DNA from: Malacoraja senta
Lineage: Eukaryota
Direction: 5' to 3'
Length of the DNA stretch: 64,000 nt
Assembly: GCA_038087875.1 (NCBI GenBank)
Contig: CM075988.1
Span: 5,456,001-5,520,000 of the forward strand
Notes under the pieces: model-generated
What the model was told of the DNA's origin: nothing
The model's input: the letters and a program-made list of their open reading frames with translations, nothing else
Databases searched by the model: none
Shown here: piece after piece, positions 1-62,625 of the stretch
Position numbering within the stretch: position 1 is the stretch's first letter
How the letters are laid out: each line of letters begins with the position of its first letter
Made by a program: the position numbers and the translations under genes

Positions 1-596
1 GTGGCGGATCTGTACGAGGGCTAAATGCTCACACAACAAAAGTGATGAAGTCTAGTTTTCAGGCCTCCAAGTTTGAAACAGAGAGATGGTTTAAAAGCAC
101 GAGCAATGTCACCAACAATTGGTACCAAGATAATGACGTTAAAGTGGCAAGCTATCCCAAGACACTTCACAGCAACAACATCAAATAAAATTTGACTCAG
201 TGTCAGTATCATTTCAGCTCTGTGGACAAAAGGAGCTCAGCCTCCGTGAAGCCATCACATGCAATTTCAAAACCCTGTCACTATTGTTGAAAATTCTTTT
301 GATGCTGCAGAATCTGTTTCAGCTCCAGCTCTCCGCCCTTTCCTAGATGGACATCACCATCTGGTGGAAACAGAAGGAACTGCAGATAGACACGAAATGC
401 TGGAGCAACTCAGCGGGTCAGGCACCATCTCTGGAGCGAAGGGATACGTGAGTTTCGGGTCGAAACCTTCTTCAGACTCACTGATGATTTAGATGCTGGA
501 ATCCTGAGCAAAACACAGAGTGCTGGTGGAAATTAGCAGGTCGAGGTTAGATTAGGTTTATTACTGTCACACGTACTGAGGGCGATACACAATGTA

Positions 597-4460: not shown

Positions 4461-4689
4461 GTCAAGCTTATTGTCATATGCACAAATATGGTGAGGTACA
4501 GAAACAATGAAGATCTTGCTTGCAGAAGCATCACATCAACTCAGCCAGCACACAAAAACAAAAGAGAGAGATGCAAAGAACTGCAGATGCTGGTTTACAT
4601 AAAAGGCACAACGTGTGGGAGTAACTCTGAGGGTCAGGCAGCATCTTTGGAAAAGAGGGATAGGTCTGAAGATGGGTCCTGACCTGAAA

Positions 4690-6215: not shown

Positions 6216-7106
6216 CAGGCAGCAAAGTGGCACAGTAGTAGGGTTGATGCCTTACAGAGTCAGAGACCCAGGTTCGAGCCTGAATACGGGTGCTGTCTTT
6301 ATGGAGGTCAGAAGGGTCTCGACCCGAAACGTCACCTATTCCTTCGCTCCAGAGATGCTGCCTCACCCGCTGAGTTTCTCCAGCATTTTTGTCTACCTTT
6401 GATTTTTCCAGCATCTGCAGTTCTTTCCTAAACATCACTAAGTTGTAGCTCAGGATCAATTTTCACATGAAACAATCACACAAATAGCAAATTTAATTTG
6501 GCTCATTCCTATGTTCACAATTGTATAACGCTGTGCCTGTTTTTTTCCCACAGGGGAAACAAATTTTCTTAAACTTTAAACACAGAGTCTGAAGCAGAGA
6601 ACTGAGGCAGTGAGTGAGTGACTGGCTTGAAGCCTTGTATGTCAAGAAATTCATTCCTGGTCTGCAGCAGTGATTGTACCCTGAACTTTGTTCCCACATT
6701 TCAGTTCTATTGACTGCAAGAGAATTAATTTAAGCAATGGTACAGCGTGTTGTTGCTTTAAACTAGCAGGTCAGGTGAGATGTGTAGGAAGGAACTGCAG
6801 ATGCTGGTTTAAACCGAAGATAGACACAAAACGCTGGAGTAACTCAGCAGGACAGGCAGCATCTCTGGAGAAAATTAATGGATGTCATTTCAGGTCGAGT
6901 CCCTTCTTCAGACAAAACGTGTTTAGATTTGTTTTTTATTGGAATATTTTCCTTTCTGATGATTCACTCAGCCAAGTGTAGTTTTGATTCACTGTTGGTG
7001 AAATGACATGGGAAGCTCTGCAATCTTGTTGGTCATTCATGCCTGGGGTATGTGTGCTGTCGGCTGAGGAGGTAGGGGGAGGGGGGAGGGAGATTACAGC
7101 AGCTAA

Positions 7107-7434: not shown

Positions 7435-7884
7435 TTACTGGTTGAAATTTTAATGAAACCAGCCTAGACAGATTCATCTTAAAGTGATGCAATGAAGAAA
7501 CAGGCCCTTCAGCCCATCAAGTCCACTCCATTCTTCAAGCACCCATACACAACAAACATACACTAATCACACCTTATTTTCCACACAGCCACAAGATACA
7601 CCAGGGACTATTTTCTTTGGAAAGTTAACCAACAACTTTTCATCTTTAGGACGTGGGAGAAAGCCCGAGCACCCAGAGGATACGTGCACACTCCACATAG
7701 ACAGCATCTGAAGTCGGGATTGAACTCAGGTTGCTGAAGCTGACAAGACGTGCCACTACGCCACTCGAGTTCACCATGTTATGTTGCACACCAGGCATTT
7801 TCACAATACCTTCTGCATGTTTAGATAGCATTTTGTTATTGCAGAGTTATATTGCAACTTCTCTTGAACCAAAACATGGGCCCA

Positions 7885-8212
7885 AATGTGTAGGATGGAA
7901 CTGCAGATGCAGGTTTACACCGAAGATGAACACAAAAGGCTAGAGTAACTCAGCGGGTCAGGCAGCAACTATGGAGAAAAGGAATAGGTGACATTTTGGG
8001 TCGAGACCTTTCTTCAGGCTTGATCGTTGTTACTTTTTCCATCGTGTTCTTTCATTTGTTCTATATCTCTCTATATCACCGTCCATATCTCTTGTTTCCC
8101 TTTCCCCTGACTCTCAGTCTGAAGACGGGTCTCGACCCGAAACGTTACCCATTCCTTTTCTCCAGAGATGCTGCCTGACCGGCTGAGTCACTCCAGTTTT
8201 TGTGTCCATCCC
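7885..8212. mobile_element. Inverted pair of Penelope-derived terminal repeats
   Basis: gagtaactcagcgggtcaggcagca (minus copy) faces gatgctgcctgaccggctgagtcactcc (plus copy). Confidence 0.7.
8116..8150 (+). ncRNA. Minimal hammerhead ribozyme motif in Penelope-derived repeat
   Basis: CTGAAGA-c-gggt-ctcg-accc-GAAA-cg-TT. Confidence 0.6.
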
Positions 8213-8299
8213 GTGGGCCCAAATTCTACAAGATGCACGTCGAGTGTGGATAAATAAACACAATCATAATTTGAGGGGGTGGAGTGGCATAACAAGCAG

Positions 8300-29685: not shown

Positions 29686-29714
29686 TATGGCTATACCTTG
29701 AAATTCCATTACAA

Positions 29715-34015: not shown

Positions 34016-34505
34016 TAATAGAGTCATAGTTATACAATGTGGAGCAGGCCCTTCAGCCCAACTTACCCACACCAACCAACATGTCCCACCTATAGTAATC
34101 CTACCTGCCTGCATTTGACCCATATCCCTCTAAACCTGTCCTATCCATGTACCTGTCCAAATGTTTCTTCAACACTGCAATAGTACTTGCCTCAACTATC
34201 TCCTCCAGCAGCTCATTCCAGACACCCTCCACCCTCTGTATGAAAAAGTTACCCCTCAGGTTACTATTAAATCTTTCCTCCCTCACCTTAAACCTATGTC
34301 CTCTGGCTCTTGATTCCCCTACTCTGTGCAAGAGACTCCATGTGTCTTCCCAATCTATTCCTCTCATGATTTTGTACAGCTCTATAGGACCACCCCTCAT
34401 CCTCCTGCGCTCCAAGGAATAGAGTCTCAGCCTATTACACCTCTCCCTCTAGCTCAGGCCCTTGGGTGTCGTAAATCTCCCCAGTACCTTTTCCAGCTTG
34501 ACAAC
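34016..34505 (-). mobile_element. CR1/HER1 LINE 3' fragment
   Basis: LYKIMRGID..RGHRFKVR..QRVEGVWNELLEE. Confidence 0.85.
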
Positions 34506-35302
34506 ATATTTCCTAAAATATCATGAGGTCCTTCTTATCCCATCGAGAGAGAGGATCGGGCCTCAGTTTGACACAGTATCTGAAAGATGGCTGATTTGAA
34601 GCACTCGATAAGATTCAAGGTCAGCTACTGGAAGCGAGCGATGGTGACCTCGTGTACGGAAGTGGAAGAGGAGTTTGCGGAGGTCACATGTCATGGAGTG
34701 GGCTCCAGAGGAGCCAACAGTAGCTGGGGGAGGATGCAGGGATCAAACAACAGTGGAGGGCCCACAGATGTCTTACGAGTGCACAGATCCGGTGTGACCG
34801 GATTCAAGAGAGAGTTAGATTTAGTTCTTGGGGCTAAAGGAATCAAGGGATATGGGAAATAAGCATGAATGGGGTTCTGATTTTGGATGATCACCCATGA
34901 TTATATTGAATGGTGGTGCTGGCTCGAAGGGCCGAATGGCCTACTCTTGCACCTATTTTCTGTTTCTATTTTTCTATGACTTGCTATAGCTGTGCGGAGT
35001 GGCAGTGGAAGGCATCACTAGGCCAGGCTCACCCCTACATCACTGATCCAGTGCCGTCGCCAGGACAACGGGCCTTTAAAGCCAGGATTAGGCTGGACTT
35101 ATTTAAGAACTTAATTCTTGAAAGCTACACGATGGCACCTGAAAGGTGGCAAATCATTGTTAAGAAATCTACTATCTGTTAATATAGTTGATATATGTTA
35201 CTTACGTATAATTGTGCTTACGTATCGTATAATTTTACTTAACATAGACACAAAAAGCTGGAGTAACTCAGCGGGTCAGGCAGCGTCTGTGGAGAAAAGG
35301 AA

Positions 35303-35338
35303 TAGGTGACGTTTCGGGTCGAGGCCCTTCTTCAGACT
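35303..35338 (-). ncRNA. Minimal hammerhead ribozyme motif
   Basis: Reverse complement agtCTGAAGAagggcctcgacccGAAAcgTCacc. Confidence 0.55.
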
Positions 35339-36704: not shown

Positions 36705-37329
36705 GTTGGTTTCAAGTAAAAATGCACTGCAAATGGCTGTTTGGGGGGTTTGGGGTTGAAGTAAAAATGCAGTGCAAATGGCTGTTTGGGGGGTTTTGGG
36801 TTTAGGTGGAAATGCACTGCAAATGGCTGTTTGGGGGGTTTTGGGTTGAAGTAAAATTGTAGCGCAAATGGCTGTTTGGGGTTTTTTGCGTTTAGGTGGA
36901 AATGCACTGCAAATGGCTGTTTGGGGGGGGGGTTTGGGTTGAAGTGGAAATGCACTGCAAATGGCTGTTTGGGGGGTTTTGGGTTGAAGTGGAAATGCAC
37001 TGCAAATGGCTGTTTGGGGGGGTTTGGGTTGAAGTGGAAATGCACAGCAAATGGCTGTTTGGGGGGTGTTGGGTTGAAGTGGAAATGCACTGCAAATGGC
37101 TGTTTGGGGTTTTTTGGGTTGAAGTGGAAATGCACTGCAAATGGCTGTTTGTGGGGTTTTGGGTTGAAGTGGAAATGCACTACAAATGGCTGTTTGGGGT
37201 TTTTGGTGTTGAAGTGGAAATGCACTGCAAATGGCTGTTTGGGGGGTTTGGGTTGAAGTGGAAATGCACTGCAAATGGCTGTTTGGGGGGGTTTGGGTTG
37301 GTGGAAATGCACTGCAAATGGCTGTTTGG
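36705..37329. repeat. 45-bp minisatellite, 13-14 units
   Basis: gaagtggaaatgcactgcaaatggctgtttggggggttttgggtt. Confidence 0.92.
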
Positions 37330-37719
37330 CTAAACTTGACAACTTCCTGTTGGCACTATATTGATTTTATATTAAACGCTACCACTTATGGCTGTGATTT
37401 TTGGCCATCTTACTCAGTCCCCCTCCGCTCATCAGGTGCAGAGGATTCTTCCCATCAATGAATAATAAAAGTGTTATTAGTGTTTAAAAAATGTTGAGAA
37501 TCTCTCTCCTGTGAATCACGCCATGAAGGCCACACCTTTTCCGGTGGGACGGGGAGGGATTATAAAACCCGGAAGTGCGTGTGTGGCTCGGTCTCTGCAT
37601 GATGGGGGAGGGAGAGGTCGCGACTGTCTGAGCTGTGAATCAACTGAACACACTGGATGTCTACTGACCTGTGAGTGTGGTGTTTTGTGTGGTTTTATGG
37701 TGGTTTTATGATGGTTTTA

Positions 37720-38070
37720 CCCTGCTTGAAATGGTATGAAACTGCATTTGAATGTGGTGGCCTTGCATCCTGTATGAAATGGTATGAAACTGCATTTGAA
37801 TGTGGTGTCGTTGCACCCTGCATGAAATGGTATGAAACTGCACTTGAATTTGGTGGCCTTGCACCCTGCTTGCAGTGGTTGGAAACTGCACTTGAATTCG
37901 GTGGCCTTGCACCCTGCTTGAAGTGGTAGGAAACTGAACCTGAATTTGGTGGCCTTGCACCCTGCTTGAAGTGGTATGAAACTGCACTTGAATTTTGTGG
38001 CCTTGCACCCTGCTTGAAATGGTAGGAAAATGGATTTGAATTTGGTGGCCTTGCACTCTGCTTGAAATGG
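37720..38070. repeat. 48-bp minisatellite, ~7 units
   Basis: tgaaatggtatgaaactgcacttgaatttggtggccttgcaccctgct. Confidence 0.9.
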
Positions 38071-39060
38071 AATTTCAAGCAATAGCCGTGAGTCAACTGC
38101 CAGCCCACCAGCCGTGAGTGAGCTGCCAGCACATCATGCTTGAGGGACTGAGCTGCCACCCCAAGAATCCATTTGGCCCACAATGTCCATACTAGCCCTC
38201 TGGAGACCAGTAGTCCCTGCAGCCAACAACACCCATACCAGCACTCCAGAAAGCCCCCCCCCCTCACTGGCCACCAATATTGGAATTGGTGGAGAGGTGG
38301 AATATTGCGTCGGAGGACCAGCCCTCCCTTGTGAACATGGGACCCAACGGGTCCCACTTAGTCTAGTATATATATATAAATAATTAATAAGATAAGAGGT
38401 GAACCAGAAACAGGTGACAGTGAAGATGTAGATGCTTCCTAATACGTATAAGAAAGTACTCCCAGATTTTTCTAATCTCCAGAGGTTCTAGTTGAGGCCC
38501 CTGGCTTATTGTTTTCACCGTGATGTTGGGCAGTACTCAAAGAGCTTGATGGCTCTTTTCCCATAACTGAGATTCCCATCATTGACACCATTTCTTGGTA
38601 GCGGGCCAAAATGTGAATGCGGGGAATTAGTCTTTTACTTTATTCCAATTTATGTATTTCCCTTTAGTCATTGCACAAGATTATGTCATGGAAATGCCAA
38701 AGACTCGAGGGCCTAGCTTTAAGGTGACAGGGGCGAATATTAAAGGTGATATGCAGAGCTTTTTTTACACAGAGTGTGGTGGGTGTCTGGAACATGTTGC
38801 CAGTGGTGGTGGTGGAGGTAGATACAATAGTGGCGTTAAGGAAGATAGCAGCAAAGCTGCTGCCTCACAGCGCCAGAGACCCAGGTTCAATCCTGACTAC
38901 GGTTACTGTCTGTACGGAGTTTGTATGTTCTCCCTGTGACCATGTGAGTTATCTCTGGGTTCTCCAGTCTCCTCCCACACTCCAAAGGCGTTCAGGTTTG
39001 TAGGTTAATTGGCTTCAGTAAAATGGTAAATTGTCCCTTGTGTGTAGGATAATGTTAATT

Positions 39061-39410
39061 GGACGACAGATGGCGCAATGGGCTAAGTGTTCGGCTGGCA
39101 ACCGGAAGGTAGCCGGTTCGAATCCCGCTTGGAGTCCATACTGTCGTTGTGTCCTTGGGCAAGACACTTCACCCACCTTTGCCTGCGTGTGAATGTGTGT
39201 GAATGTGTGTGAGTGATTGGTGGTGGTCGGAGGGGCCGTAGGCGCAGATTAGCAGCCACGCTTCCGTCAGTCTGCCCCAGGGCAGCTGTGGCTACAGAAG
39301 TAGCTCACCACCACCGAGTGTGACTGAGGAGTGAATGAATAATGCGATGTAAAGCGCCTTGAGTATTAGAAAGGCGCTATATAAATCCCATCCATTATTA
39401 TTATTATTAT
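39061..39410 (+). mobile_element. AFC-like tRNA/CORE SINE with L2-type tail, inserted in an HE1 SINE (38855-39490)
   Basis: Box A tggcgcaatgg, box B ggttcgaatcc, CORE gtgtccttgggcaagacactt, gccccagggcagctgtggctac, tail tgtaaagcgccttgag..(att)n. Confidence 0.75.
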
Positions 39411-39914: not shown

Positions 39915-40915
39915 TTGAAGATAGACACAAAAGGTAACTCAGCGGGATAGACAGCGTCTTTGCAGAAAGGGAATGAGTGACATTTTAGGTCGAGAACCTT
40001 CTTCAGACTGAGAGTCAGAAGAAAGGGAAACAAGATACAGACAGTGGCCTAGAGGGACATAGAACAAACAAATGAAAGATATGCAAAAAAGTAACGATAA
40101 CAAAGGAAACAGGCCATTGTCAGCTGGGGGCTAGGTGAAAACGAGTTACAGACAATGAGACTCAACAAGACTTTGAAGCTCGTACAACGACTTGGATGGG
40201 GGAGAGACAAGAGAGAGGGGATGCAAGAGTTACTTGGAGTTAGAGAAATCAATATTCATACCATTGGGCTGTAGGCTGCTGAAGCAAAATATGAAGAGCT
40301 GTTCCTCCAATTTGCGTTTGGCCTCACTCTGACAATGGAGGAGGCCTAGGACAGAAAGGTCAGTGTGGGATTGGGAAGGGGAGTTAAAGTGTTTTTCACC
40401 AGGAAATCACGTAGGTCCAGGCGGACGGAGCGAAGGTGGTCAGCAAAACGATTGCCCAGTCTGCGTTTGGTCTCGCCGATGTATAAGAGTCCACACCTCG
40501 AACAATGATACAGTAGATGAGGTTGAAGGAGGTAGACAAAAGTGCTGGAGAAACTCAGCGGGTACAGCAGCATCTATGGAGCGAAGGAAATAGGGTGCAA
40601 ATAGGGTGCCTAACTAGAAAGAACTGTCGGGGTCCCTGGACAGAGTCGACGGAGGAGGTATAGCGACACGTGTTGCATCTACTCCAATTGCAGAAGAAGG
40701 TAGCTGGGGAGGGTGTGGTTTGGATGGGAAGGGATGAATTAACCAGGGAGTTGCGGAGGGAATGGTCTCTGCGGAAAGTGGAAAGGGGTGGAGATGGGAT
40801 GATGTGGCAAGTAGTGGGATCCTGTTGGAGATGGCGAATATGTTGGAGAATAATGTGTTGTATACAACGCCTGAGGTGTAAATGGAGCCGGTGGAAAGGA
40901 GGTTGAGAACATTTC
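39915..40915 (-). mobile_element. Penelope-like element 3' fragment with GIY-YIG endonuclease remnant
   Basis: CSRCGLLYIGETKRRLGNRFADHLRSV; downstream terminal repeat with degenerate hammerhead core (~39980-40008). Confidence 0.85.
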
Positions 40916-41499
40916 TATTTTCCTTATCTTCACCCAAAGTAGATCCACTAATCTCATATTTCTGCATGTTATGCTCCACCTGTCAATTCCCCTTCTGCAG
41001 ACTCTTTGCAGTTTGCTTTCCCACCTACGTATATATTATTAGAAAATCTGGTGACAAATTACTCAGCCCCTTCATCTGAGGTATTGATATGTATTATAGA
41101 TGTGTAGGAAGGATGCTGGTTTATACTGAAGATAAACACAAAAAGCTGGAGTAACTCAGCGGGTCAGGCAGCATCTCTGGAGAGAAGGAACAGGTGGTAT
41201 TTTGGGTTGAGTCCCTTCTTCATATGTTCTCTGTGGCAGCCCACTGCTTACAACTTGTCTATCCGTCAAATGACCCATTCTGCTAACTTTGTTTTCTGAC
41301 TGTTACTAAATTCTCTTTCTATGCTAACGTATTCCCTTAATGCCATGAGCATAGTAATTTTATTTTTTTAATTTAAGGCTGAAGAAGGATTCTGACCCAA
41401 ATCGTCATCTATCCATTTTCTCCAGAGATGTCATCCTGATCTGGTGAGTTGCTCCAGCTCATTATGTTTTTTTTTTGTAAACTAGGATCTGCAGGTTAG

Positions 41500-44400
41500 G
41501 TTTAGGTTTAGAGGTACAGCACGACAACAGGCCCTTCGGCCAACCTTAGTCCACGCTGACCATCGATCACCCGCACACTAGTTCTGTATTATCCCACCTT
41601 CAGAATAAAGGCAATTTACAGAAGCTAATTAACTTGCAGTATAAATCCTACACAGACAGCACCCATAGTCAGGATCGAACTCGGGTTTCTGGCGCTGTGA
41701 GGCAGCTGCTCTACCTACTGCACCATTGTGCCACCCCAATTGTAATTTTATATGTTGGATTTTATCAAACTTCTTCTGGAAACTCTAAATGCATGACATC
41801 TTCTGATGCTCTTCGTTAACACCTCATTACACCCTCAATGGCTTTTCAATTTCCCTTCCATTAAATGCATGTTCACTTTGCTTATGTACATTTTGTTATT
41901 TCAAAGGCCCTGTGCCAATATATCACAGCATTCCCCTCAGGATGGATGCCAGCCTTGGGGACCGATTCCTGCTTCCTGATCAACCTTTAGAACCCTCAAG
42001 CCACATGGGGTGGCATGGTGGACATCAAACAGTACAGCGCAGTTACAAACCCTTCACCCACATGGGGTGGCATGGTGGCGCAGCGGTAGAGTTACTGCCT
42101 TACAGCGTCAGAGACCCGGGTTCGATCCTGACTACGGGTGCTGCCTGTACAGAGTTTTACGTCTCTCCATGGCCGCGTGGGTTTTCTCCGAGGTTGGCTT
42201 GGTATGAATGTAAAATTGTCTCTAGTGTGTGTAGGACAGTGTTAATGTGCGGAGATCGCTGGTCGGCATGAAATAGTTGGGCCGAATGGCCTGTTTCCGT
42301 GCTGTATCTCTAAACTAAAGAAAATACAATTAAACATCCTTGACTCTAGACTCAGTCTTGACTCATATAGAATTACGTGCTATCTATCCACTGAAGCTAT
42401 TAAAGTCTTGTAATACCATGAATATGTTCTCCAATTGTGTTTTGTATTGATGTCTTGTTTCTGCAACATCTTTTTCTCTTCATTGTCTTGTAGAATACAT
42501 CTGTAGTTTCTGTATAATATATGTATTTGTATGTAGTCATGAGCTATGGGCCTATGATGCTGCGGCAGGCAAGATTTTCATTTTATTTAAGACATCCCTT
42601 CTTGTGCTTTAGACCAGACTTTAAGGTCCTTAGAGATACTGCGTGGAAACAGGCCCTGTGGCTCACCAAGTCCGCACCAACCAGCGATTACCAGCCCCCC
42701 TGCACACTAGCACTAACCTACACACTGGGGACAATTTACAAATTTCACCAAAGCCAATCAACCTACAAACCTGTATGTCTTTGGGGTTTGGGAGAAAACC
42801 CATGCAGTCACGGGGAGAACATATCAACTCTGTACAGACAGCACCCGTAGTCAGGTTCGATCCTGGGTCTCTGGCGCTGTAAGGCAGCAACTCTACCGCT
42901 GCGTCACCGTGCCACCCCAAATATACACACGATAATAAACTCAGCTTGATTTGATTTGAATTCGATAGACATCTTGGCATAAAAGGCACCTAGAAGTATG
43001 GGGAAAGAGTAGGAATATGGGTTGAGGTCAAGAATTAGCCTTTATCAAATTAAAGGGCAGGACATGACCAACCAGCTGATTGACCAACTTCTACTCTCAT
43101 CCATGTTTCTATGTTTAGGAAGGAACTGCAGATGCTGGTTTGCATTGAAGAAGGGTCTTGACTCGAAACGCCACCAATATCTTCGATCCAGAGGTGCTGC
43201 CTGTCCTGAGAGTTACTGCAGCATTTTGCGTTTTAGTTTATTTTAGGTTTTAGTTTTGGAGATAGGGTGCAGAAACAGGCCATTTGGCCCACCGAGTCTG
43301 CACTGACCAGCGATCCCCACATATTAACACTATCTACACTTCTACCAAGTATACAGACCCAAGCCACATAACCTACAAACCTGTACATCTTTGGAGTGTG
43401 GGAGGAAACCGAAGATCTCGGAGAAAACCCATTCAGGTCACGGGGAGAACGTACAAACTCTGTACAGACAGCACCCGTTGTCGGGATGGAATCCGGGTCT
43501 CTGGCGCTGTAAGCGCTGTAAGGCAACAACTTGACCGCTGCGCCACCGTGTCTATCGTGTTCCTATGTTGCTCCGTTAGAGAATGTCATCTGGGGCTAAT
43601 GTTGAGCCAGCTTCTTTGCAAAACTTTAGGAGTTTAAACTGAGAAATTATGCACTCCAGTAACTTGTAAAACCTTCCATGAACTAGAGGAAAGATTTATA
43701 AGGTGGGAAGAAAAGTCTGTCAAGCTTCATGAGATGGGTTACAGTAAGGGCTTTAAAATTACATGTTCAGGGTTTATTGTCAACCAGAGTTTTACTGCCA
43801 GTATTTGTCACTTTTATATTCAATCATTTTTAGTCGTAAATGTTATTAAGCAGTCGCATCAGTACTTTAATGAGAGCTGCTCAATGTCACTTCTCAGCAT
43901 ATCATTTGTGACCCATCTCAGTCACATACACACTCTATATAATGTGAAACACATGGACATTCAGAAAATAATCCGCCTCCCCATTCTACACACTGACTCC
44001 TGATCCATCAAAATACAACGTCTGAGCACAATGTACATGTGTAAAAGCTAGATTCATTAAATATATTCTCTAGAGCCACCAGCTCAGACATCCTCCTCAT
44101 AATAACCTTTGCCTCAGCCAAAGGGACATTATAACTCCTACATCTCAGTGTGGCTCAGCGGTAGAGAGCTGCTGCCTTACAGCGCCAGAGACCCGGGTTT
44201 GATCCTGACTGCGGGTGCCTGTCTGTACGGAATTTGTACGTTCTTCCCGTGACCCGCGTGGGTTCTCTCCAAGATCTTTGGTTTCTTCCCACACTCCAAA
44301 GACGTACAGATTTGTAGGTTAATTGGCTTGGTGCAAATATAAAACTGTCCATCGTGTGTGTAGGATGGTGTTAGTGTGCGGGGATCGCTGGTCGGTGTGG

Positions 44401-45025: not shown

Positions 45026-46494
45026 TAGTGAGGAAGGGAGAGTGGAAGATGAGAAATGTCAGGGATTGAGTGTGAAGCAGAAGTGAAGCAGGGATGGAGG
45101 GAGGGGGGAGGGAGGGGGGAGGGAGAGCTTTTTGGAACATATTGCTTATATTGACAAGGAAAGTGCAAGTTAGAATGGGAGGGGAAATAACATCACAAGA
45201 GAGCAATGTTCCATGGATGAAGTGGTTCGCATACAATGGTTTGGCAAGGAATTAAAATGGCAAGGAGAGAACATAAAGATGTCCACTGTGTTTATGCTCT
45301 GTTCCTTTCCTCAGTGTTCAATCCTATGTGCGGAGAAGCCACCTGAAAATAACGGGCTTCTTATATAATATCTCAGTGGTTTGGGTCTTAAAACAAACCA
45401 ACAGGAGCCTCAGGAACACCACCATAGGTTGCATAGGGACTGCATGGGGGAATTCCATTCCCACATTCAATGTGACTCAAGTCACTTGTGGTAGCACAGC
45501 AGTAGAACTACTGCCTTACAGCGCCGGCGGCCTGGGTTCTATCCTGACTGTGGGTGCTGTCTGTACAGAGTTCGTACGTTCTCCCCGCCTCAAACCTGCT
45601 TGGGTTTGTCTCCGAGATCTTCAGTTTCCTCCCACACTCCAAAGACGTACAGGTTTATAGGTTAATTGGCTTGGTGTCAATGTAAATTGCCCCTGATAGT
45701 GTTAGTATCGCTGTCAGGTGCGGACTCAGTGGGCCAAAGGGCCTGTTTCCACGCTGCATCTCTCAATTAAAAGTGGTCATTGAGAAGCCATACTCAGTGT
45801 GGCTGGGGCACATACCTACTTTCCATAAGTTCCAGGAGCAGAATGGCTGATCTATCTTTCCTTCTCAACCCCATTCTCCTGCCTTCGCACCATAACCCCT
45901 GACACCCTTAGTAATCAAGAATCTGTCAATCTCTGCCTTAAAAAAAAATCTCCATTGACTTGGCCTCCACAGCCCATCTTCTTTCTGAAGGTTGGTCCTT
46001 TAATTCTGAGGTAATGGCCTCTGGTCCTAGACTCTCCCACATCCACTCTATCCGGGCCATTCACTATTTCGAAGACGTGCCGCTTTGTCGGTTAATTGGC
46101 TCCTGCAAATGATCCCCAATGTTTAGGAAGGTGCTAGTGTATGGGTGATCATTGGTCAGCGTGGACTCGGTGGGCCGAAAGGGCCTGTTTCCATGCTGTA
46201 TCTTTAAACTAAACTAAACATAACTCACTGTTGGAGAAATAGGATGCACAGTGGGGCTTGAGAGAGACATATTTTGAATCCAGCTGATAGAATAGGTTGC
46301 TAGCAACTGACTGATAATAGATGGACATGATGAATTGAGGTGGCATGGTCAATTGCCAGATTTGGTTTTCACCCACTTCATGGTGCATCAATGGTCTGAG
46401 CGATGGAGGAGATAAAACTCCCTCAGCAGCTGAACTGGGCAAGTAACTTGCCAAACGAATGGGAACAATGGAAGGAGGAATTTTCCTCTCCATA

Positions 46495-48344: not shown

Positions 48345-48722
48345 ATGTGCAGGAAGGAACTGCAGATGCTGGTTTAAACCGAATATAGATACAAAAAGCT
48401 GGAGTAACTCAGCAGGACAGGCAGCATCTCTGGAGAGAAGGAATGGGTGACGTTTCGGGTCGAGACCCTTCTTCAGACTGGTTAGAGATAAGGGAAACGA
48501 GAGATATAGACGATGATGTCGAGAGATAAAGAACAATGAATGAAAGATCTTCAAAAAAGTAATGATGATAAAGGAAGCAGGCCACTGTTAGCTGTTTGTT
48601 AGGTGAAAACGAGAAGCTGGTGCGACCTGGGTGGGGGAGGGATAGAGAGAGAGGGAATGGCGGGGCTACCTGAAGTTAGAGAAATCAATATTCATACGAC
48701 TGGGCTGTAAGCTGCCCAAGCA
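48345..48722 (-). mobile_element. Penelope-derived terminal repeat
   Basis: Homologous to 39915-40290. Confidence 0.8.
48446..48479 (-). ncRNA. Minimal hammerhead ribozyme motif, best-preserved copy
   Basis: Reverse complement agtCTGAAGAa-gggt-ctcg-accc-GAAA-cg-TC-acc. Confidence 0.7.
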
Positions 48723-49005
48723 GGGGTTGTGTAATGTCAGCAAATTGCAATTAGCAACATGAATGGCAGAGGAGAAATGTCCCGGGACATCCATTCAAAT
48801 GTCTGCTGATCCTTCCCCTCAACCGGTGTAAGAAGTATCACCTATCCCTTTTCTCCTGAGATGCTGCCTGACCCACTGAGTTACTCCAGCAATTGGATCA
48901 ACTTTCAAACTCTTGTCCTCACGTGTTGGGTGTTTTCCTTCCTTCATCAGAAAGGTTTAGTCCCAGGGAAGATTCATAAACCCGTGGTGTTACTTCATAT
49001 GAGAT

Positions 49006-50429: not shown

Positions 50430-51013
50430 GATGCAGCATAGAGACAGGCCATTCAACCCGCCAAGTCCATGCTGACCCTCCATCACCCATTCAAACTTGT
50501 TTAATGATATCCCACAATCTCATCCACTCCCTACACACTAGGGACAATTTATAGTGGCCAATTAACCAACAAACCCGCATGTCTTTGGGATGTGGGAGGA
50601 AACCAGAGCACCCAGAGGAAAACCACACAAACACATGGGGAACGTGCAAGCTCCACACAGACAGCACCCAAAGTCAAGATCGAACCTGGGTCGCTGGTGC
50701 TGTGAGGTAACACGGTGGCGCAGTGGTAGAGTTGATGCCATACAGTGCCAGAGACCCGGGTTCAATCCTGACTACGGGTGCTGTCTGTACGGAGTTCGTA
50801 CGTTCTCCCCATGACCTGCATGGGTTTTCTCCAAGATCTCCGGTTTCCTCCCACACCCCAAAGACGTACAGGTTTGCAGGCAAATTGGTTTTGGTAAAAT
50901 AGTAAATTGTCCCTAGTGTGTGTAGGATGGTGCTAGCGTATGGAGATCACTGGTCGGCGCGGACTCGGTGGCCGAAGGGCCTGTTTCCGTGCTGTATCTC
51001 TAATCTGAACTAA
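50430..51013. mobile_element. Head-to-head HE1-type SINE pair
   Basis: Minus copy 50430-50705 abuts plus copy 50710-51013. Confidence 0.85.
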
Positions 51014-51679: not shown

Positions 51680-52150
51680 AATTGTGGACGCAGCCCGGAC
51701 CATCCCACAAACCAACCTCCCTTCTATTGACTCCATTTATACCTCACGCTGCCTCGGCAAGGCCAGCAGCATAATCAAGGATGAGTTGCACCTTGGCCAT
51801 TCCCTCTTCTCCTCTCTCCCATCAGGCAAACTAAACAGAAGGGTGAGTACGCACACCTTCGGATTCAAGGACAGTTTCTTCCCAGCTGTTATCAGGCGAC
51901 TGAATCACCCTACTACACCTAGAGAGTACAGTTGAACTACTATCTACCTCATTGGTGACCCTCAGATATCCTTGATCGGACTTTGCTGGTTTTACCAACC
52001 ACTAAATGTTATTCCCTTATCAGGTATCTATCTATACACTGTAAATGGCTCCATTGTAATCATGTTTTTTTTTTTTTTTGCTGTCTGGTTAACACGCAGC
52101 AAAAGCTTTTCACTGTACCTGGGTACACATGACAATACACTAAACTGATT
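51680..52150 (+). mobile_element. Rex1/Babar-type LINE 3' fragment
   Basis: LPSIDSIYTSRCLGKASSIIKD..GHSLFSSLPSGK..FKDSFFPAVIR; ttcactgtacc..tgacaat tail. Confidence 0.8.
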
Positions 52151-52171
52151 CTGAAACGTCCTAATAACGTC

Positions 52172-52455
52172 AGTGCCTGCATCTTACACAGTGTCAGCAT
52201 CTTACACAGTGCCTGCATCTTACACATGTGTGCCTGCATCTTACATACATGAGTGTCTGCATCTTACATACATGAGTGCCTGCATCTTACACACATGTGT
52301 GCCTGCATCTTACACAGTGTCTGCATCTTACACAGTGCCTGCATCTTACACACATGAATGCCTGCATCTGACACACATGTGTGCCTGCATCTTACACACA
52401 TGTGTGCCTGCATCTTACACACATGTGTGCTTGCATCTTACACGCATCTGTGCCG
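52172..52455. repeat. 18/24-bp minisatellite
   Basis: gtgcctgcatcttacaca(catgt) ~13 units. Confidence 0.9.
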
Positions 52456-52881
52456 GCATCCCTCCTGGCCAGGAACATCACGGGTGTGTGCATGCGCGGT
52501 AGATTGGGAACACCGTCCAATCAGAGGACAGTGAAGCGGGACTTGCGCGGGATTGAGCTGGGACACCGTGTGTTATGCTGCAGCCATTTTTAATCTGCCA
52601 TTGATGTACCATGTTCGACATTAGTTTGTAAATGTCTCTTTATATTAGTTGCTCCATTGTTGTTATTGCTCAGGGCAATACATAACAGTGAGGTGATTAT
52701 GGAGATGTGGTTGGGTGTTTGATGAGATGAAGGGCCTTTCCGTGCCATCACTCCATAATTCTAAAATGCCTCTGTTTCTTTCACAAAACAAATTCTCTCT
52801 AAATGTTGTTGCTGTCCTTTTTATTTTTGTCCTATTGATGATAAACCGATTATATGCACCTGATCAATTGTCTTTAGTAGT

Positions 52882-53903: not shown

Positions 53904-55309
53904 ACGAACGTATGTGTTATGGTGCAATGATGCAATGCAATGACAAACAGTGTAATTCATGACATTAACGTTGGAACCTACATACAATAAAGCAGATGAG
54001 GGGAAATGCCGGATGCATTGGACTTAGTTTGCCAGAAGGTATTTGATAAGATACTGCATCAAAGATGATTGTAAAGAATACAAGTTCACCACAGGTTTAA
54101 GGACTTGAGTAGGTTAAATGAGTGGGTAAAGTTCGGGCAAATTGAGTGTAAGCTGGGGACCATTTTAGCAGGATTTATTTTTAAAGCATGTTATTTGAAT
54201 ATTGAAAGATTGCAGAGCTGTAAGATTAAACAGGGTATTGGGATATGAGTGGGAAGCAACTGCAGATGTTGGTTTAAACCGAAGATAGACACAAAATGGT
54301 GCAATAACTCAGCAGGTCAGACAGCATCTCTGGAGAGGAAGGGTCTCAACCCGAAACGTCACCCATTCCTTCTCTCCAGAGATGCTGCCTGTCCCGCTGA
54401 GTTACTCCAGCATTTTGTGTCTATCTGGTGATTTGAGTATATGATTTGTTACTTTCTAGTATGCATGTGATTCGCAAGAAGAAGAAGAAGAATGTGCAGG
54501 GATCGCTGGTCGGCGTGGACTCCGTGGGCCGAAGGGCCTGTTTCCGTGCTGTATCTCTGAACTAAACTAAGCAATGCTCCTTCCTTTGCACGGAAGCAGA
54601 TATATATTGTTAAGATTTGCCACACGTATCATAAACAGTGCTTAATTACTATGGCACTCCTCAGGATTATTTTAACATTGTTAATTGCAAACTAAATAGA
54701 AGGGTTGAAGAAGGATAAATGAATGATGAATGGCTATTGGAAAGTCATTAACCTGTGGATCCCCATATCCCGAATCCCTGCCTGTGGTGTTGCATAAACA
54801 TTCATCATATTCTTTGTGAGCTTCAAAGGTTGTGCAATGAATTTACGGTTCAGGAACAAATTCCCAAAGTTAAGATAGAAATCTAATGAGGCCCACATCA
54901 TCATAACAACCATCCTGGAGTAAATATGTACGACTTGTTGTTGATAAATGAAAAATTCACAGAAGATAAACGATAAGGCAAAAGTATAACTATTTTGTAA
55001 AACTCTGTGTAGGAAGGAACTGCAGATGCTGGCTTACACCAAAGGTAGACACAAATTGCTGGAGTAACTCAGCAGAACAGGCAGCATCTTTGGAGTGAAG
55101 GAATGGGCGACGTTTTGGGTTGAGACCCTTCTTCAGACTGAGAGTCAGGGCTCTAACAGTGTTGTGTGACGTTGCAAGAATGAATGATTTCTTCCTTCAA
55201 TTAACTCAGTAACGTTCCATGTATATTTTGCAACATGATGAACTATGTAGGACTCAATGAAATGCACAAACCTGTTTGGCCTTTCAATATTAATATGCCT
55301 GGTGTACAT

Positions 55310-56060
55310 CTTACCTTGCAGTTCTGGTCACCCTTTACAAGAAGGATGTGTCAGCTTTGCAGAGATTTACCAGAGTGCTGTGTGGATGAGAAGGTACGAG
55401 CTACAAGGAGAGGTTGGTCAAACATGGATTATTTTCTCTAAAATACTATAGGCCAAGTGTTTCCAACCTGGGGTAAATCTACCCCTAGGGGGTAAATTAC
55501 GCCGACCCAGGGGGTAAATTTGTTGATTCTGGATTTGTACATATTTCTTCTCATTGACTGAATGTGTTTGGTTCTGGTATCTGTTCATCATTAGTTGTTC
55601 ATAAATAAGTGAAATAACATGGTTATATGCTATTAAAGTTGCCAGGGGTAAACGGGATGATAAAGGTTGGGAACCCCTGTTATAGGTTGAGGGAAAACTT
55701 AACAGAAATCTTTGAAATGATGAGAGGCGTAGATAATGGTGGACAGTCAGAACTTCTTTCCCAGGGTAGACATGGCAGAGACTAGAGGGCAGAGCTTTAA
55801 GGTGAGAGGGGAAACGTTTAATGGAGATGTGTGGGGAAATTTTTTACACAATGGGTGGTGGGTGCCTAGGATGTGCTGCCAGAGGTGGTGGTGGAGGCAG
55901 ATACAACAGTAGCATTTAAGAGGCATTTGGATAGGCGCCTGAATATAAAGAGAGTGGAGGGATATGGATCATGTGTAGGCAGGTGAGATTAGTGTATCTT
56001 GGCATCATGCTCAGCACAGATATTGTGCGCTGAAGGGCCTGTTCCTGTACTGTTCTTTAT
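55310..56060 (+). mobile_element. CR1 3' fragment split by a hAT MITE
   Basis: gactagagggcagagctttaaggtgagagg..gatatggatcatg. Confidence 0.75.
55454..55679. mobile_element. hAT MITE
   Basis: TIR caagtgtttccaacct / aggttgggaacccctg; 8-bp flanks ctataggc / ttataggt; subterminal ggggtaaa repeats. Confidence 0.8.
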
Positions 56061-56945: not shown

Positions 56946-57014
56946 GTTGGATGGCACTTTATGCTTTTTTGTGTATTAACCAGCATCCGCACTTTGTTTC
57001 AACATTCATACAAT

Positions 57015-57425
57015 TGCGTTGTAAGCTTCCCAAGCTGAATGTGAGGTGCTGTTCCTCCAGTTTGCACATGGCTTCACCCTGACAATGGAGGAGGCTCAGG
57101 ACAGAAAGGTCAGTGTGGGAATGCTAGGGGGTGTTAAACAAGGCTGCAACTCCATCAAGCCTTGGTGGGTTGAGTGCAAGTGCTCGGCAAATCAATCGTC
57201 TAGTCTATGTTTGGTCTCACTGATGTAAAGGAGCACTGGAACATTGAACGCAGTAGATGAGGTTAGAGGGGGAGGAGGTGCATGTAAACCTCTGTCTCTG
57301 CTGGAAGGGCAGCAGGCATCCCTGGATGGAGGTGAAGGAGGAGGTATAGGGATGAGTGTTACATTCCCTATGGTTGCAGGTGAAAGTATCCAAGGAGGGG
57401 GCAGTTTGAGTGGGAAGGGATGAGG
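57015..57425 (-). mobile_element. Penelope-like element fragment
   Basis: QRFTCTSSPSNLIYCVQCS; homologous to 40260-40740. Confidence 0.75.
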
Positions 57426-59019
57426 ACAGGTGATGTTTCAGGCCAGGATCCTTCTGCATTTCAGTTTGGGGCCCTTCCTCAGGCTTCACCTAAAACATCA
57501 CCTGCATGTTCTCCAGGGATGCTGCCTGACCAGCTAATTTACACCAGCACTTTGTGTCTTTATCAGGGCTGCCTTGATGTCATGTTACATATGTTCATCT
57601 TAATTCAAAACATCAACAGAACTGCACATGCTTTAATCTGAAAATAACCATAGAACATAGAAGGGTACTGCATAGCAACCGGCTTCTGGCCCACAATGTT
57701 TGTGCTGAATATGATGCTAAGATAAAGTAATCTGTCTGTACATGATCTTGGCATGCCCATGTGCCTATCTACAAGCTGTTTAAATGCCACCATTGTTGCT
57801 GCCTCCATCACCACTCCTGGCAGTGTGTTCTAGTCTAGGCATTCACCACTCTCTATGTAAAATATTTGCCCAGCATACCTCTATTAAACTTTGCCTCTTT
57901 CACCTTAAATCTATGCCCTCTAGTCTCTTCAACATTTTTCAACAAAGGATTCTGAAACTACTCAGCTGGTTAGTTTGCAGCTGAGGTGAGAGAATCTCTC
58001 TGATGCTAAGAACTATATTCTGCACTCTGTACTCTGTCCACATATTGTACTTGAATGCTGCTTGATTGTGTTTATAGATAGTATTATCCGATTTGTGTAG
58101 GAAGGAACTGTAGATGCTGGTTTACACCAAAGCCTCAGTCTGAAGAAGGGTCTCGATCCAAAACGTTACCCATTCCTTCTCTCCAGAGATGCTGCCTGAC
58201 CCACTGAGTTACCCCCCGCATTTTGTGTCTATCTTCGGTGTCATTGGACAGCATGCAAAACAAAGCTTTTCACTGTACCTCGGTATGCATGGCAACAATA
58301 AACCTTAACACAAACCAAGTTAACAGCGCAGAAAATTTCTGATAGCAATTTCATTCCATCAGCATTTTCTCTTGAATTTTGAGATTTACTAGTTTATAAA
58401 TTAAGTGCTCGTAATAAAGTTGACACTGTTAATGTTTCTGAAAAATACTCCTCCATTTATTTATATAGTTATGATAAACACCTTTTATGGAAATTTACAC
58501 CCGATAATTGCAAAATTAAATTAGGAAAAGGTTTTTATTCCTCGGTGCCTCTTCCAAAGAACATAAATACCTTCCCTGTTTGCTTCCAGTCTTCAGAATC
58601 TAAATATAAATTACCTTTAATGGAACCAGTTTATGGGTAAATACTTTAGATTTTGAAATGAAATAATGATTGTATTTTAATATGAATTATGTGTTAGATT
58701 GTGCAGCAGTAATTTAAAAAGTTGATGTCTTTTAAGGTTCTGAAAAAATATGTTATTTGAATGAGTACTGTTGCCCTAACCTTGCCCATACGAAGTACTC
58801 ACTAATAATTTATTTTGAAACAGAGAATTATAGAAACAAGAAACTGCAGATGCGGGTTTACAAAAGAGGACACAAAGTGCTGGAGTAACTCAGCGGGTCA
58901 GGCAGCATCTCTGGAGATTATGGATAGGTGATGTTCGGGTGGGGATCATTCTTCAGACTCTCTGCAGGTCTGAAGAAGGGCCCCGACCCAAAACATCACC
59001 TTCCATGTTCCCACTGAGT

Positions 59020-59542: not shown

Positions 59543-61164
59543 GTGCTGGATTCCATCATTGATTCCATCCACCAGAACTCCAGCATTGTGGGGAGCTCTC
59601 TCCAGCCCCTCTCTCTCAGCATGGCAGCCATTACATGTGTAAGTCAACACGATCTTAATTAGTACGGGTGTCAGGGGTTATGGGGAGAGGCTGGAGAATG
59701 GGGGTTGAGAGGGAAAGATACGGCAGCCATGATTGAATGGCGGGGTAGACTTGTCAGGCCAAATGGCCTAATTCTGCTTCCAGAACAAATGAACCTATGA
59801 AGTTGCAGGCTCCTTTAAGGGCAGCAGCTCTGACGTACTTGCTGCATTCACAGATGCCAGAAGCTGCATAAGGTTCGAGCAGCAAATCTGCCGGGATTTG
59901 CAGAGATGTTCAAGAAGTGCAGGGAAACTGTTTGATTTTAATTACCTAAACATCTCTTGGTTAAATGCTGTAGCTGAGGGGAAAGGAGGGCGGTAATGTT
60001 TTCTAAGATGTGTTCTGGAGACTATCTGTGTCTTCAAATACACGTCTGGATCTGGTGGTGGGTTGGGGGGGGGGGGGGGTAAGGTGGGCCAAGTGTCAGC
60101 AAGGCACTTGGGGAAGAGTGATCAATGTACCATAAGGTTTAAATTATTAACGGAGAAGAGCAAGGAATCAGCTAAAGTAGAGCCTTTATATGAGAAGGGT
60201 ATGAGTCTCTCTAGAATAAAAGGCAAGCAAAGTGTGTAAGGAGAGGATGTGTGGGAAGAAACTGCTGGTTCAAACCAAAGATAGACACAAAATGCTGGAG
60301 TAACTCAGCGGGACAGGCAGCTTCTCTGGAGAGACGGAACGGGTGAAGTTTCGGGTTGAGACCCTTCTTCACATATTTCAGATACAAGCTGACTACATTC
60401 CCACAAGAGGAAAAGGCAGGGAAAGCAGAGCTTTCTGTGGGGTTGGGCTGAATTTTGAGCTAATATACTCTTGCGGGGTTATGGGGACCAAAGTGGAAAT
60501 GGTACCAATAGATTGCTCTGCTGAGAACTGACATAAATTCTATGGCTAAACTGTGGGTCTGGGAATTATCAACACCCACACAGTTTTCCTATTGCTAAGT
60601 TTTACCAGAAGTAAAATATTGTGCCTGGTGGTAAATTAAATTCATGATCTGAAAGTGCTGACATTTCCACCTAGGGATAAAGGTTCTGAGAGTCTACCCT
60701 CTCCATGCCTCTCATAAAAGGTACATTCATTCAGTTTCCCAGATTGTGTCATAGCCTCAGATGTTATAGAATTTTACTATATCCCTCAGCGCCACACTAT
60801 TCAATCTTCCAGCAATCCAAGGTGTATACTACCAAAGCATTCAGGTCTGAAAATTAATTTAAAAAATCGTTGATGCTAGTAATATGAAAGAGAAATAGAA
60901 TGCCCAGGAAACACTCAGCAGTTCAGGCAGCATCTGTGGAGAGAGAAACATTTTTCGAAGACTTTTCATAGAAATAATTTTATTGAAATTGAGGATTGAG
61001 GATGGATAGGATGAAGGGATTACCTCTGAAAGATAAGGCTATGGGATAGACTGTTGGTGAATCCAAGCTGTTGACAGGTATGATGAGAAATTTTGACAAA
61101 ACAACAAAGGAAAATGAAATAGCTGTGAAATGCAGGTCAGAGCTGCAGGAAATGCTCCACATGG

Positions 61165-62083: not shown

Positions 62084-62189
62084 GGTTAACACCTAATTTA
62101 GATGTTCTCCATGCACATCCTGACCAACAGCTGGCACGTGTCAACAGTCACCCAATCTTCAGTTGATAAGGCCACTAATGTCTTAACGT

Positions 62190-62625
62190 AGAAACAAGGA
62201 ACTGCAGATGCTGGTTTACAAAATTACCTGAGAAAGGGTCAGTCTGAAGAAGGGTCCCGACTCAAAATGTCACCTATCCATGTTCTCCATAGATGCTGCC
62301 TCACCCGCTGAGTTTCTCCAGCGTTTTAGTCTACCTTCATCCTCGGTCTCCTCCATGGCCAGAGTGAGTCCCACCGCAAATTGGAGGAGCAGCACCTCAT
62401 ATTTTGCTTGGGTAGTTTACACCCCAGCCGTGTGACTTCTCCAATTTCAGGAAGTTCTTGCTTTCTCCCTCCTTCCCCTCCCCTTCCCAGCTCTCCCACA
62501 GCCTACGGTCTCCGCCTCTTCCTTTATTTTTCCCGCCCCCCTCCACATCAGTCTGAAAAATAGTCTCGACCCGAAACCCGAATGGTTTTTCCAGCATTTT
62601 TGTCTACCTTCAATTTTTCCAGCAT
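62190..62625 (+). mobile_element. Penelope-like 3' end between two terminal-repeat copies
   Basis: EEQHLIFCLGSLHP; degenerate hammerhead cores at ~62243 and ~62553. Confidence 0.7.

What the first reader, a model, noticed from the sequence alone, without database searches (positions are those of the whole stretch)
48345..48722. Dispersed family of short Penelope-derived repeats carrying a minimal hammerhead ribozyme
Seen: the motif agtCTGAAGAagggtctcgacccGAAAcgTCacc has both hammerhead core boxes, a 4-bp stem II and a palindromic ACGU in place of stem III. It is intact at 48449-48476 (-), near-intact at 8119-8146 (+) and 35308-35335 (-), and decayed at ~450, 2607, 4665, 5805, 6312, 6890, 39980, 41378, 43146, 54337, 55107, 58139, 58969, 60343 and 62243. 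Established: Penelope-like elements carry such minimal type I hammerheads, proposed to cleave as dimers. Inference: most copies here lack ORF sequence, so a ~150-350 nt ribozyme-bearing unit may have amplified like a SINE or retrozyme and could cut host pre-mRNA.
Basis: partly seen in the sequence, partly recalled or inferred. Interest (0 to 1): 0.75.

Follow-up and report, generated by a model that had tools for sequence, protein, structure and literature searches.

The report
Penelope retroelement stubs with minimal hammerheads
These scattered repeats are mostly decayed, short end-pieces of a known type of jumping gene (Penelope-like) in a cartilaginous fish, each carrying that element's usual tiny ribozyme motif; the one less expected feature is that many copies start at almost the same base, probably the start of the element's RNA.

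Summary
The motif and every listed copy are real: 40 family hits in the window, 0 in the reversed window. They are pieces of a Neptune-type Penelope-like element (PLE). Longer copies run from a GIY-YIG ORF end through the pseudo-LTR into the hammerhead and tail; the nearest named proteins are from a stingray and the whale shark. PLE hallmarks are present: two 3' ends about 35 nt apart, head-to-head inverted partners, and one 11-nt target duplication around such a pair. The ribozyme looks weak and unmaintained: stem I has 2 bp, no compensatory change, core intact in 3 of 16 copies. Cutting of host pre-mRNA has no support. Less expected: 17-18 of 40 copies begin within -3..+8 of an initiator-like TCA(+1)GT at the ribozyme's 5' edge (about 2 expected), and public DNA contigs show the same edge. 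Best reading: run-off cDNAs from the 5' end of uncleaved PLE RNA, not a tandem retrozyme; self-propagation as a SINE is not shown. Minimal hammerheads in PLEs were published in 2014, and this scan has already noted them, short copies included, in other shark genomes. New member of a known kind.

The parts
48345..48722 (-). 5'-truncated Penelope-like copy: ORF end + pseudo-LTR + minimal hammerhead + tail (the finding)
48666..48722 (-). Last 18 codons and stop of the PLE ORF (C-terminus of the GIY-YIG domain)
   Evidence: translation; tblastn to the 40.2 kb ORF end, 75% over 16 aa
48480..48665 (-). Pyrimidine-rich pseudo-LTR upstream part, related to those at 40010-40230 and 8021-8115
48477..48482 (-). 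Initiator-like site; A(+1)=48479 is the modal 5' end of short copies (this copy reads ACCAGT; 8116, 40009 and 55139 read CTCAGT, a full BBCA+1BW match). Start site inferred, not shown
   Evidence: consensus from PMC5287114 abstract
48447..48478 (-). Minimal type I hammerhead motif: stem I 2 bp (48478-77 with 48448-47), CUGAAGA 48476-70, bulged A 48469, stem II 48468-57, GAAA 48456-53, ACGU palindrome 48453-50, predicted cut between 48449 and 48448
   Evidence: layout as in PMC4209133
48345..48446 (-). Tail with two family 3' end zones, +86..+104 (48394-48376) and +120..+135 (48360-48345); inferred reverse-transcription start sites
   Evidence: analogy to PMC11167929
48335..48342 (.). 8-nt direct repeat also at 48719-48726: candidate target-site duplication
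39915..40900 (-). Longest copy (about 1 kb): CX4CX2C linker, GIY-YIG motif, pseudo-LTR, decayed hammerhead, tail; a short copy (40529-40594) is nested in its ORF
7877..8224 (.). Head-to-head pair (7885-8020 minus, starting at +1; 8021-8211 plus, starting near -97) inside one 11-nt target duplication (7877-7887, 8214-8224); the plus arm has an intact core and stem II
35241..35338 (-). Short solo copy starting at +1; core intact, one stem II pair broken; 9-nt flanking direct repeat
57000..57540 (-). PLE ORF fragment (linker and GIY-YIG) next to a head-to-head pair of short copies at 57424-57567
62189..62615 (+). Inverted tail piece, short copy (62239-62338), then ORF end + different pseudo-LTR + decayed hammerhead (62339-62615)
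378..478 (-). Short copy starting at +1, downstream of a tail-only piece (492-542)
4570..4689 (.). Head-to-head pair: minus arm starts at the predicted cut site (+32), plus arm +2..+27
6310..6435 (+). Short copy starting at +8, directly behind the head of a tRNA-like SINE
6775..6913 (-). Short solo copy +2..+135
41100..41495 (.). Two short copies (41112-41223 minus, 41376-41495 plus)
43111..43240 (+). Short copy +5..about +91 with the distal 30-nt tail inverted at its 5' side
54240..54428 (.). Head-to-head pair (minus +39..+135, plus +6..+97)
55006..55154 (-). Copy starting about 11-15 nt upstream of +1
58094..58243 (+). Short copy -3..+104 with the distal tail inverted at its 5' side
58830..59010 (.). 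Head-to-head pair, arms starting at +1 and +2
60243..60372 (-). Short solo copy +5..+135

Best explanation
These are dead-on-arrival insertions of an endonuclease-bearing, Neptune-type Penelope-like element in a cartilaginous fish. The element's protein nicks DNA and starts reverse transcription inside its RNA at two sites, about 100 and about 135 nt downstream of the hammerhead's 5' edge (inferred from the two 3' ends and by analogy to the anole element). When it primes on the downstream repeat it gives 5'-truncated ORF + pseudo-LTR copies (shown by anatomy). When it primes near the RNA's 5' end it runs off after 100-135 nt, giving the abundant short copies; the 5' end is probably a polymerase II start at TCA(+1)GT (inferred). 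Priming on both DNA strands gives the head-to-head pairs (inferred). Every copy that spans the motif came from uncleaved RNA. After insertion the copies decay, CpG sites first, so most motifs are inactive. PLE identity: about 0.95. Run-off from a start site as the cause of the fixed 5' end: about 0.55-0.6.
For: ORF fragments match full-length RT + CX2-5CxxC + GIY-YIG proteins (E to 1e-32); nearest named ones are from Hypanus sabinus and Rhincodon typus (6 of 8 looked up carry names). 3' ends: 15 of 28 strong hits at +86..104, 12 at +120..135, 1 between. 8 of 17 short copies have an opposite-strand partner head-to-head within 40 nt, and a ninth (8020) abuts a pLTR arm inside one 11-nt target duplication; both traits are described for PLEs (PMC8557442 passages). 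5' ends: 17-18 of 40 in -3..+8 against 1.5-1.8 expected from the rate elsewhere (p<1e-11); their upstream flanks do not match known pLTRs (16 of 17 score at or below the 99th percentile of random pairs; 41376 scores just above) and match each other only through inverted partners. Public DNA contigs: loose ends at 48478 and 48479 with random consensus (agreement 0.31-0.32), summed depth 54M over the core against 2.5M just upstream in X1. The first loose letter is an extra G on the element strand in 2 of 2 runs listed at 48479 and 3 of 4 at 48478, as expected from cap copying (PMC2912911 passage). D. virilis Penelope has an internal TATA-less promoter in its pLTR (PMC2377424 passages).
Against: No transcript 5' end was mapped: only contigs were available, and no place with many starts was listed. 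The depth drop is partly an artefact of laying at 82% on one subfamily's pLTR, and loose ends at 48480 include pLTR-bearing copies. An initiator-like hexamer occurs at 1.7% of window positions, and the same bases read as a splice acceptor. The 5' end coordinates were curated by hand after automatic alignment. Clear target duplications (7 nt or more) were seen in only 3 of 16 insertions, against 5 of 240 mismatched pairs. The tree of 27 copies has no supported branch (0 of 24), so it cannot exclude a separate short-copy lineage. No RT-domain fragment and no full-length copy lies in the window. 4 of 40 5' ends fall at +30..34 against 1.6 expected (p=0.07), so some cleaved templates are possible.
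Confidence: 0.75

Rival explanations
1. The 100-135 nt unit is a self-propagating non-autonomous element (a SINE-like PLE derivative): it carries an internal polymerase II promoter and both RT start sites, so short copies are themselves transcribed and recopied by the PLE protein.
For: Fixed 5' and 3' ends; large excess of short over ORF-bearing copies; Penelope promoters can be internal (PMC2377424); pLTRs suffice for mobilisation in trans in a rotifer (PMC3846280 passages).
Against: Short copies show tail variants of at least three subfamilies, some shared with pLTR-bearing copies (table); a +1 arm and a pLTR arm sit inside one target duplication; copies starting at +1 to +8 lose the initiator's upstream bases; non-CpG divergence from consensus is 5-22% with no young burst.
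Confidence: 0.17
2. The fixed 5' end comes from RNA processing or structure rather than a start site: a splice acceptor (pyrimidine tract + CAG at +2/+3) or an RT stop at a hairpin that pairs the core with the tail.
For: In D. virilis the intron ends at the 5' end of helix I (PMC4209133); the predicted fold pairs about +3..+15 with +32..+51.
Against: A spliced template should add a common upstream exon; loose ends are random (0.31) and unrelated in the window. An RT would pause at the 3' side of a hairpin, not at its 5' end (inference). The fold is not more stable than shuffles (z -1.0).
Confidence: 0.2
3. A non-LTR retrozyme: tandem monomers cleaved as dimers, circularised and reinserted.
For: Head-to-tail joints of 127-138 nt units exist in public contigs (12-32 contigs per joint in the two DNA runs); retrozymes derived from PLE pLTRs are reported, also in one chondrichthyan (bioRxiv 10.64898/2026.07.22.740005).
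Against: No tandem array of the unit in the window; these joints are a tiny share of 320858 and 395369 contigs laid; the joints lie at the +1 edge and tail ends, as expected for template jumps or adjacent insertion; hammerhead is minimal with 2-bp stem I, whereas retrozymes carry canonical ones (PMC7229834 passages).
Confidence: 0.06
4. Intact copies act as ribozymes that cut host pre-mRNA and are kept for that.
For: 2 of 16 copies keep core and stem II; non-CpG core bases changed 5 times against 13.8 expected (p=0.006).
Against: The excess lies wholly in the 5' box used to select the copies (0 of 80 changes; 3' box 5 of 64, like the tail); G12 is A in 8 of 16; CpG core bases are kept less often than other CpGs (60% against 78%); 3 intact cores against 2.6 expected by chance. 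Stem II probability is under 0.02 and the active dimer lies 11-17 kcal/mol above the best fold. No strand bias, no host gene found. Related motifs cleave poorly or need protein.
Confidence: 0.04

Closest known systems
Minimal hammerhead ribozymes of metazoan Penelope-like elements (Cervera and De la Pena 2014, PMC4209133)
   Same: Type I core, bulged base before stem II, G10.1-C11.1 pair, palindromic 15.2-16.2, place in the pLTR, thousands of solo motifs from truncated PLEs, nearby pairs on opposite strands.
   Different: Stem I only 2 bp and stem II 4 bp (4-5 and 7-8 bp in their schistosome families; 2-bp helix I in D. virilis). No shark or skate entry in the supplementary files I could search (file 1 not searchable).
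Neptune-clade EN+ Penelope-like elements (as summarised in PMC8557442)
   Same: C-terminal GIY-YIG, CX2-5CxxC linker, 5' truncation, inverted adjacent copy, optional 30-40 nt tail at one end.
   Different: The sharp pile of 5' ends at the ribozyme edge is not described in the passages read.
Anolis Poseidon element PAc (Frangieh et al. 2024, PMC11167929)
   Same: Two RT start sites downstream of the hammerhead that define the tail; both strands cut and extended; uncleaved RNA is the template; no RNA-seq ends at the cut site.
   Different: Poseidon clade; its ORF starts in stem II, whereas no ORF start could be placed in this unit.
Non-LTR retrozymes (PMC7229834; bioRxiv 10.64898/2026.07.22.740005)
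   Same: Short, non-coding, hammerhead-bearing, PLE-related, with dispersed monomers.
   Different: Defined by tandem units and circular RNA; here copies are solo or inverted, ends follow PLE insertion geometry.

Membership tests
EN+ Penelope-like element | C-terminal GIY-YIG endonuclease in the ORF | tested here: met
   Pfam GIY-YIG E=0.016 on a 46-aa piece (below the curated cut-off); tblastn of full-length RT+GIY-YIG proteins E to 1e-28
EN+ Penelope-like element | Telomerase-related RT in the same ORF | tested here: inconclusive
   Present in homologues but no window copy reaches it
EN+ Penelope-like element | Pseudo-LTR following the ORF end and holding the hammerhead | tested here: met
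   Copies at 48.3-48.7, 39.9-40.9 and 62.3-62.6 kb
EN+ Penelope-like element | Optional 30-40 nt tail and inverted 5'-truncated partner | tested here: met
   Bimodal 3' ends 15 and 12 of 28; 9 of 17 short copies paired
Neptune clade | CX2-5CxxC linker between RT and EN | tested here: met
   Found in the 40.6 kb fragment, decayed in the 57.3 kb one, and in 50 of 51 homologues; shared with Nematis
Neptune clade | RT phylogeny | not testable with these tools
   No RT sequence in the window, no genome held
Minimal type I hammerhead | Core CUGANGA / GAAA / UH with stem II and palindromic stem III substitute | tested here: met
   Consensus meets it; intact in 2 of 16 copies with stem II, 3 of 16 core only
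Minimal type I hammerhead | Stem I of about 4-6 bp | tested here: not met
   2 bp, third pair A-C in 10 of 16; a 2-bp variant is known from D. virilis
Minimal type I hammerhead | Compensatory changes in stems | tested here: not met
   0 two-sided changes in 4 stem II and 2 stem I pairs over 16 copies; a single stem sequence gives little chance to see any
Minimal type I hammerhead | Self-cleavage as dimer or with protein | not testable with these tools
   Folding model disfavours it; no assay
Non-LTR retrozyme | Tandem units each with a hammerhead | tested here: not met
   None in window; rare joints in public contigs
Non-LTR retrozyme | Circular monomer RNA | not testable with these tools
   Only contigs available
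SINE-like non-autonomous element | Fixed ends without coding sequence | tested here: met
SINE-like non-autonomous element | Own source copies (lineage separate from the autonomous element) | tested here: inconclusive
   Tree unresolved; shared variants and shared target duplication argue against
SINE-like non-autonomous element | Polymerase III (tRNA, 7SL, 5S) head | tested here: not met
   No tRNA call or Rfam match on the unit

The most novel reading that the evidence does not exclude
The first 135 nt of this PLE's RNA pack an initiator, a hammerhead and both RT start sites, so the unit is copied from capped, uncleaved RNA and can then re-transcribe and spread by itself: a very abundant polymerase II, hammerhead-bearing SINE equivalent in skates and rays, whose 5' ends give a genomic record of the start site and of how rarely the ribozyme cuts in the germ line.
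Probability: 0.17. Interest if true: 0.6.

Novelty: new member of a known kind. Interest (0 to 1): 0.3.

Why it matters
The hammerhead-PLE link is known; its role in vivo is open. If the short copies are run-off products, thousands of junctions in these genomes would map the element's transcription start and measure how often cleaved against uncleaved RNA was copied (5' ends at +32 against +1), a cheap test of that open question. As a source of host RNA cleavage the family looks unimportant.

Tried and rejected
Rfam scan: 10 weak matches, none to a hammerhead family or on the motif. No whole genome held. Pattern scans of metagenome, viral (27, 75) and prokaryote genome contigs (74): 0 loci each. 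Word-index protein search with the 119-aa fragment: 0 of 54 candidates; the HMMER search found 369. Host gene: 85 translated stretches (5 PLE pieces and 80 of the other long stop-to-stop frames) gave no convincing host domain, only repeat-derived hits; short exons were not scanned. No RNA holder on record was listed; six runs are guessed RNA; this is no evidence on expression. Core-against-tail conservation was run twice: the multiple alignment with one slipped row and C3 included gave no difference (151 of 165 against 618 of 675); pairwise realignment of 16 copies without C3 gave 139 of 144 against 632 of 688 (p=0.053) or 686 of 784 (p=0.0008), traced to the 5' box. 24 of the 40 hits do not span +4..+85 and were left out of these counts. 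Tree of 27 copies uninformative. ORF start in the tail: no N-terminal match from 51 full-length homologues. Downstream promoter elements: only loose matches to recalled consensus, not counted. The paper by Lunse et al. on dimer cleavage was not held; known only through a review. Literature searches for this family or the fixed 5' end returned nothing specific; the library lacks most subscription papers and Repbase/Dfam were not searchable, so absence from print is not shown. The bioRxiv supplement listing chondrichthyan retrozyme families was not seen and may include this unit.

Full report
Observation. The motif is exact at 48449-48476 and 35308-35335 on the minus strand, with 0.01 matches expected. 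All listed copies were found. A profile from 15 window copies gives 40 hits, 19 plus and 21 minus, 5% of the window, and none in the reversed window. Rfam has no hammerhead match here. I number the unit from the A at 48479 (+1): core +4..+10, bulge +11, stem II +12..+23, GAAA +24..+27, predicted cut after +31.

What it is. The finding's own copy begins with the last 18 codons of an ORF. The same ORF end occurs at 62337-62450 and 57000-57540, and in a 1-kb copy at 39915-40900 that holds a CX4CX2C motif and a GIY-YIG motif (Pfam E=0.016, below cut-off). HMMER finds 369 relatives. Full-length ones carry RT and GIY-YIG domains, and 50 of 51 have the cysteine linker, which marks the Neptune and Nematis clades of Penelope-like elements (PMC8557442, passages). 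Of 8 relatives looked up, 6 are named: one from Hypanus sabinus, five from Rhincodon typus, so the host is most likely a cartilaginous fish (inference; 'skate-like' is my recollection of such repeats, from no call). No RT fragment lies in the window.

PLE geometry. 3' ends are bimodal: 15 of 28 strong hits at +86..104, 12 at +120..135. This matches the optional 30-40 nt tail, which in the anole element lies between two internal RT start sites (PMC11167929, parts 1-2 of 4 read). 8 of 17 short copies have a head-to-head partner within 40 nt, in three cases just the distal tail piece inverted. The pair at 7885-8211, a +1 arm and a pLTR-bearing arm, sits in one 11-nt target duplication, so both came from one event. 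Duplications of 7 nt or more were seen at 3 of 16 insertions (5 of 240 mismatched pairs).

The fixed 5' end. 17 or 18 of 40 copies (one ambiguous) start between -3 and +8, against 1.5-1.8 expected from the truncation rate elsewhere (coordinates curated). Their upstream flanks are not pLTR and share no exon. Public contigs agree: of the six loose-end sites shown per run, 48478-48480 are prominent in both DNA runs, with random consensus at 48478 and 48479; the cut site 48448 is not among them (24 rows shown, 2100 not). Summed depth falls about 20-fold upstream, partly because other subfamilies have other pLTRs; contig depth is no copy number. The site reads CTCA(+1)GT in three pLTR-bearing copies, matching the human initiator BBCA+1BW (PMC5287114, abstract); such hexamers occur at 1.7% of positions. 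The first loose letter is often an extra G, as seen for cap copying in L1 and SVA (PMC2912911, passage). D. virilis Penelope has an internal promoter in its pLTR (PMC2377424, passages). I infer run-off cDNAs from capped, uncleaved RNA; no RNA end was observed. 4 of 40 ends at +30..34 (1.6 expected, p=0.07) leave room for some cleaved templates.

The ribozyme. The layout is that of the minimal hammerheads described in PLE repeats in 2014, including solo and opposite-strand motifs, with low dimer activity (PMC4209133, parts 1-2 of 4; review passages). Among the 16 copies spanning +4..+85, the core is intact in 3 and core plus stem II in 2; stem I has 2 pairs; there is no compensatory change. Conservation tests disagree: no core excess, an excess at non-CpG core sites (139 of 144 against 632 of 688), which traces to the 5' box used to select copies (0 of 80; 3' box 5 of 64). 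G12 is lost in 8 of 16, and 3 intact cores match 2.6 expected by chance. ViennaRNA gives stem II under 2% and puts the active dimer 11-17 kcal/mol above the best fold; such models miss tertiary contacts and protein help, which the anole motif needs.

Rivals. Retrozymes are tandem and circular (PMC7229834, passages; bioRxiv 10.64898/2026.07.22.740005, parts 1-3 of 5; its supplements not seen). There is no array here, though 127-138 nt head-to-tail joints occur in 12-32 contigs each. A self-propagating SINE-like unit is not excluded: the tree of 27 copies is unresolved, and pLTRs can mobilise in trans (PMC3846280, passages). But short copies share variants with several subfamilies. Host pre-mRNA cutting has no support: no host gene found in 85 frames, no strand bias.

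Novelty. Searches for this family or the fixed 5' end found nothing specific, within a library that lacks Repbase, Dfam and most subscription papers. Four earlier notes of this scan report the same arrangement in shark genomes, one with short copies starting at the motif; these are unchecked notes, not support. Verdict: new member of a known kind, interest 0.3; the start-site reading is the part worth a genome-wide test.

Noticed in passing
window, for example 4165-4349, 20748-20931, 42074-42321, 45490-45773, 50714-50913, 61170-61452: A second abundant dispersed family of about 300 nt with a tRNA-like head and a TTTAG-type tail (about 10-13 copies per segment family), a typical tRNA-derived SINE; ARAGORN calls one piece tRNA-Ala at 39063-39137.
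   Followed up: no
window 6226-6435: SINE head joined directly to a PLE short copy at +8; if recurrent in the genome it would be a polymerase III-driven, PLE-mobilised chimera. Seen once.
   Followed up: no
window 48483-48555: In two guessed-RNA runs from different organisms and studies, a variant set (48483, 48490, 48520) makes up about 90% of depth but 0.2-2% (48483, 48490) or about half (48520) in DNA runs: probably one abundant transcript carrying a particular copy.
   Followed up: no
window 48442-48479: A 38-nt go-back joint with one extra letter in 12-13 contigs per DNA run: a tandem of little more than the hammerhead itself, the arrangement most able to form a dimer.
   Followed up: no
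window 4570-4689: Inverted arm ends exactly at the predicted cut site (+32) and joins the other arm by 2-nt microhomology; the nested copy at 40529-40594 also starts at about +32..33.
   Followed up: partly
window 29400-30061, 36706-37329, 37719-38070, 52171-52460, 25563-25957: Minisatellites with periods 30, 41, 45, 48, 23 and 90; arms at 29183-29297 and 38254-38368 are 94% complementary, framing the first four arrays.
   Followed up: no
window 31536-31602 (+): Weak Rfam match to an HDV-like ribozyme (28.7 bits, cut-off 44, E=0.26) right beside a PLE copy at 31459-31540; probably chance.
   Followed up: no
window 15138-15477, 34045-34383, 28608-28783, 55833-55996, 51682-51911, 63186-63415: Other dispersed repeats of 160-230 nt, 70-81% alike, not identified.
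   Followed up: no
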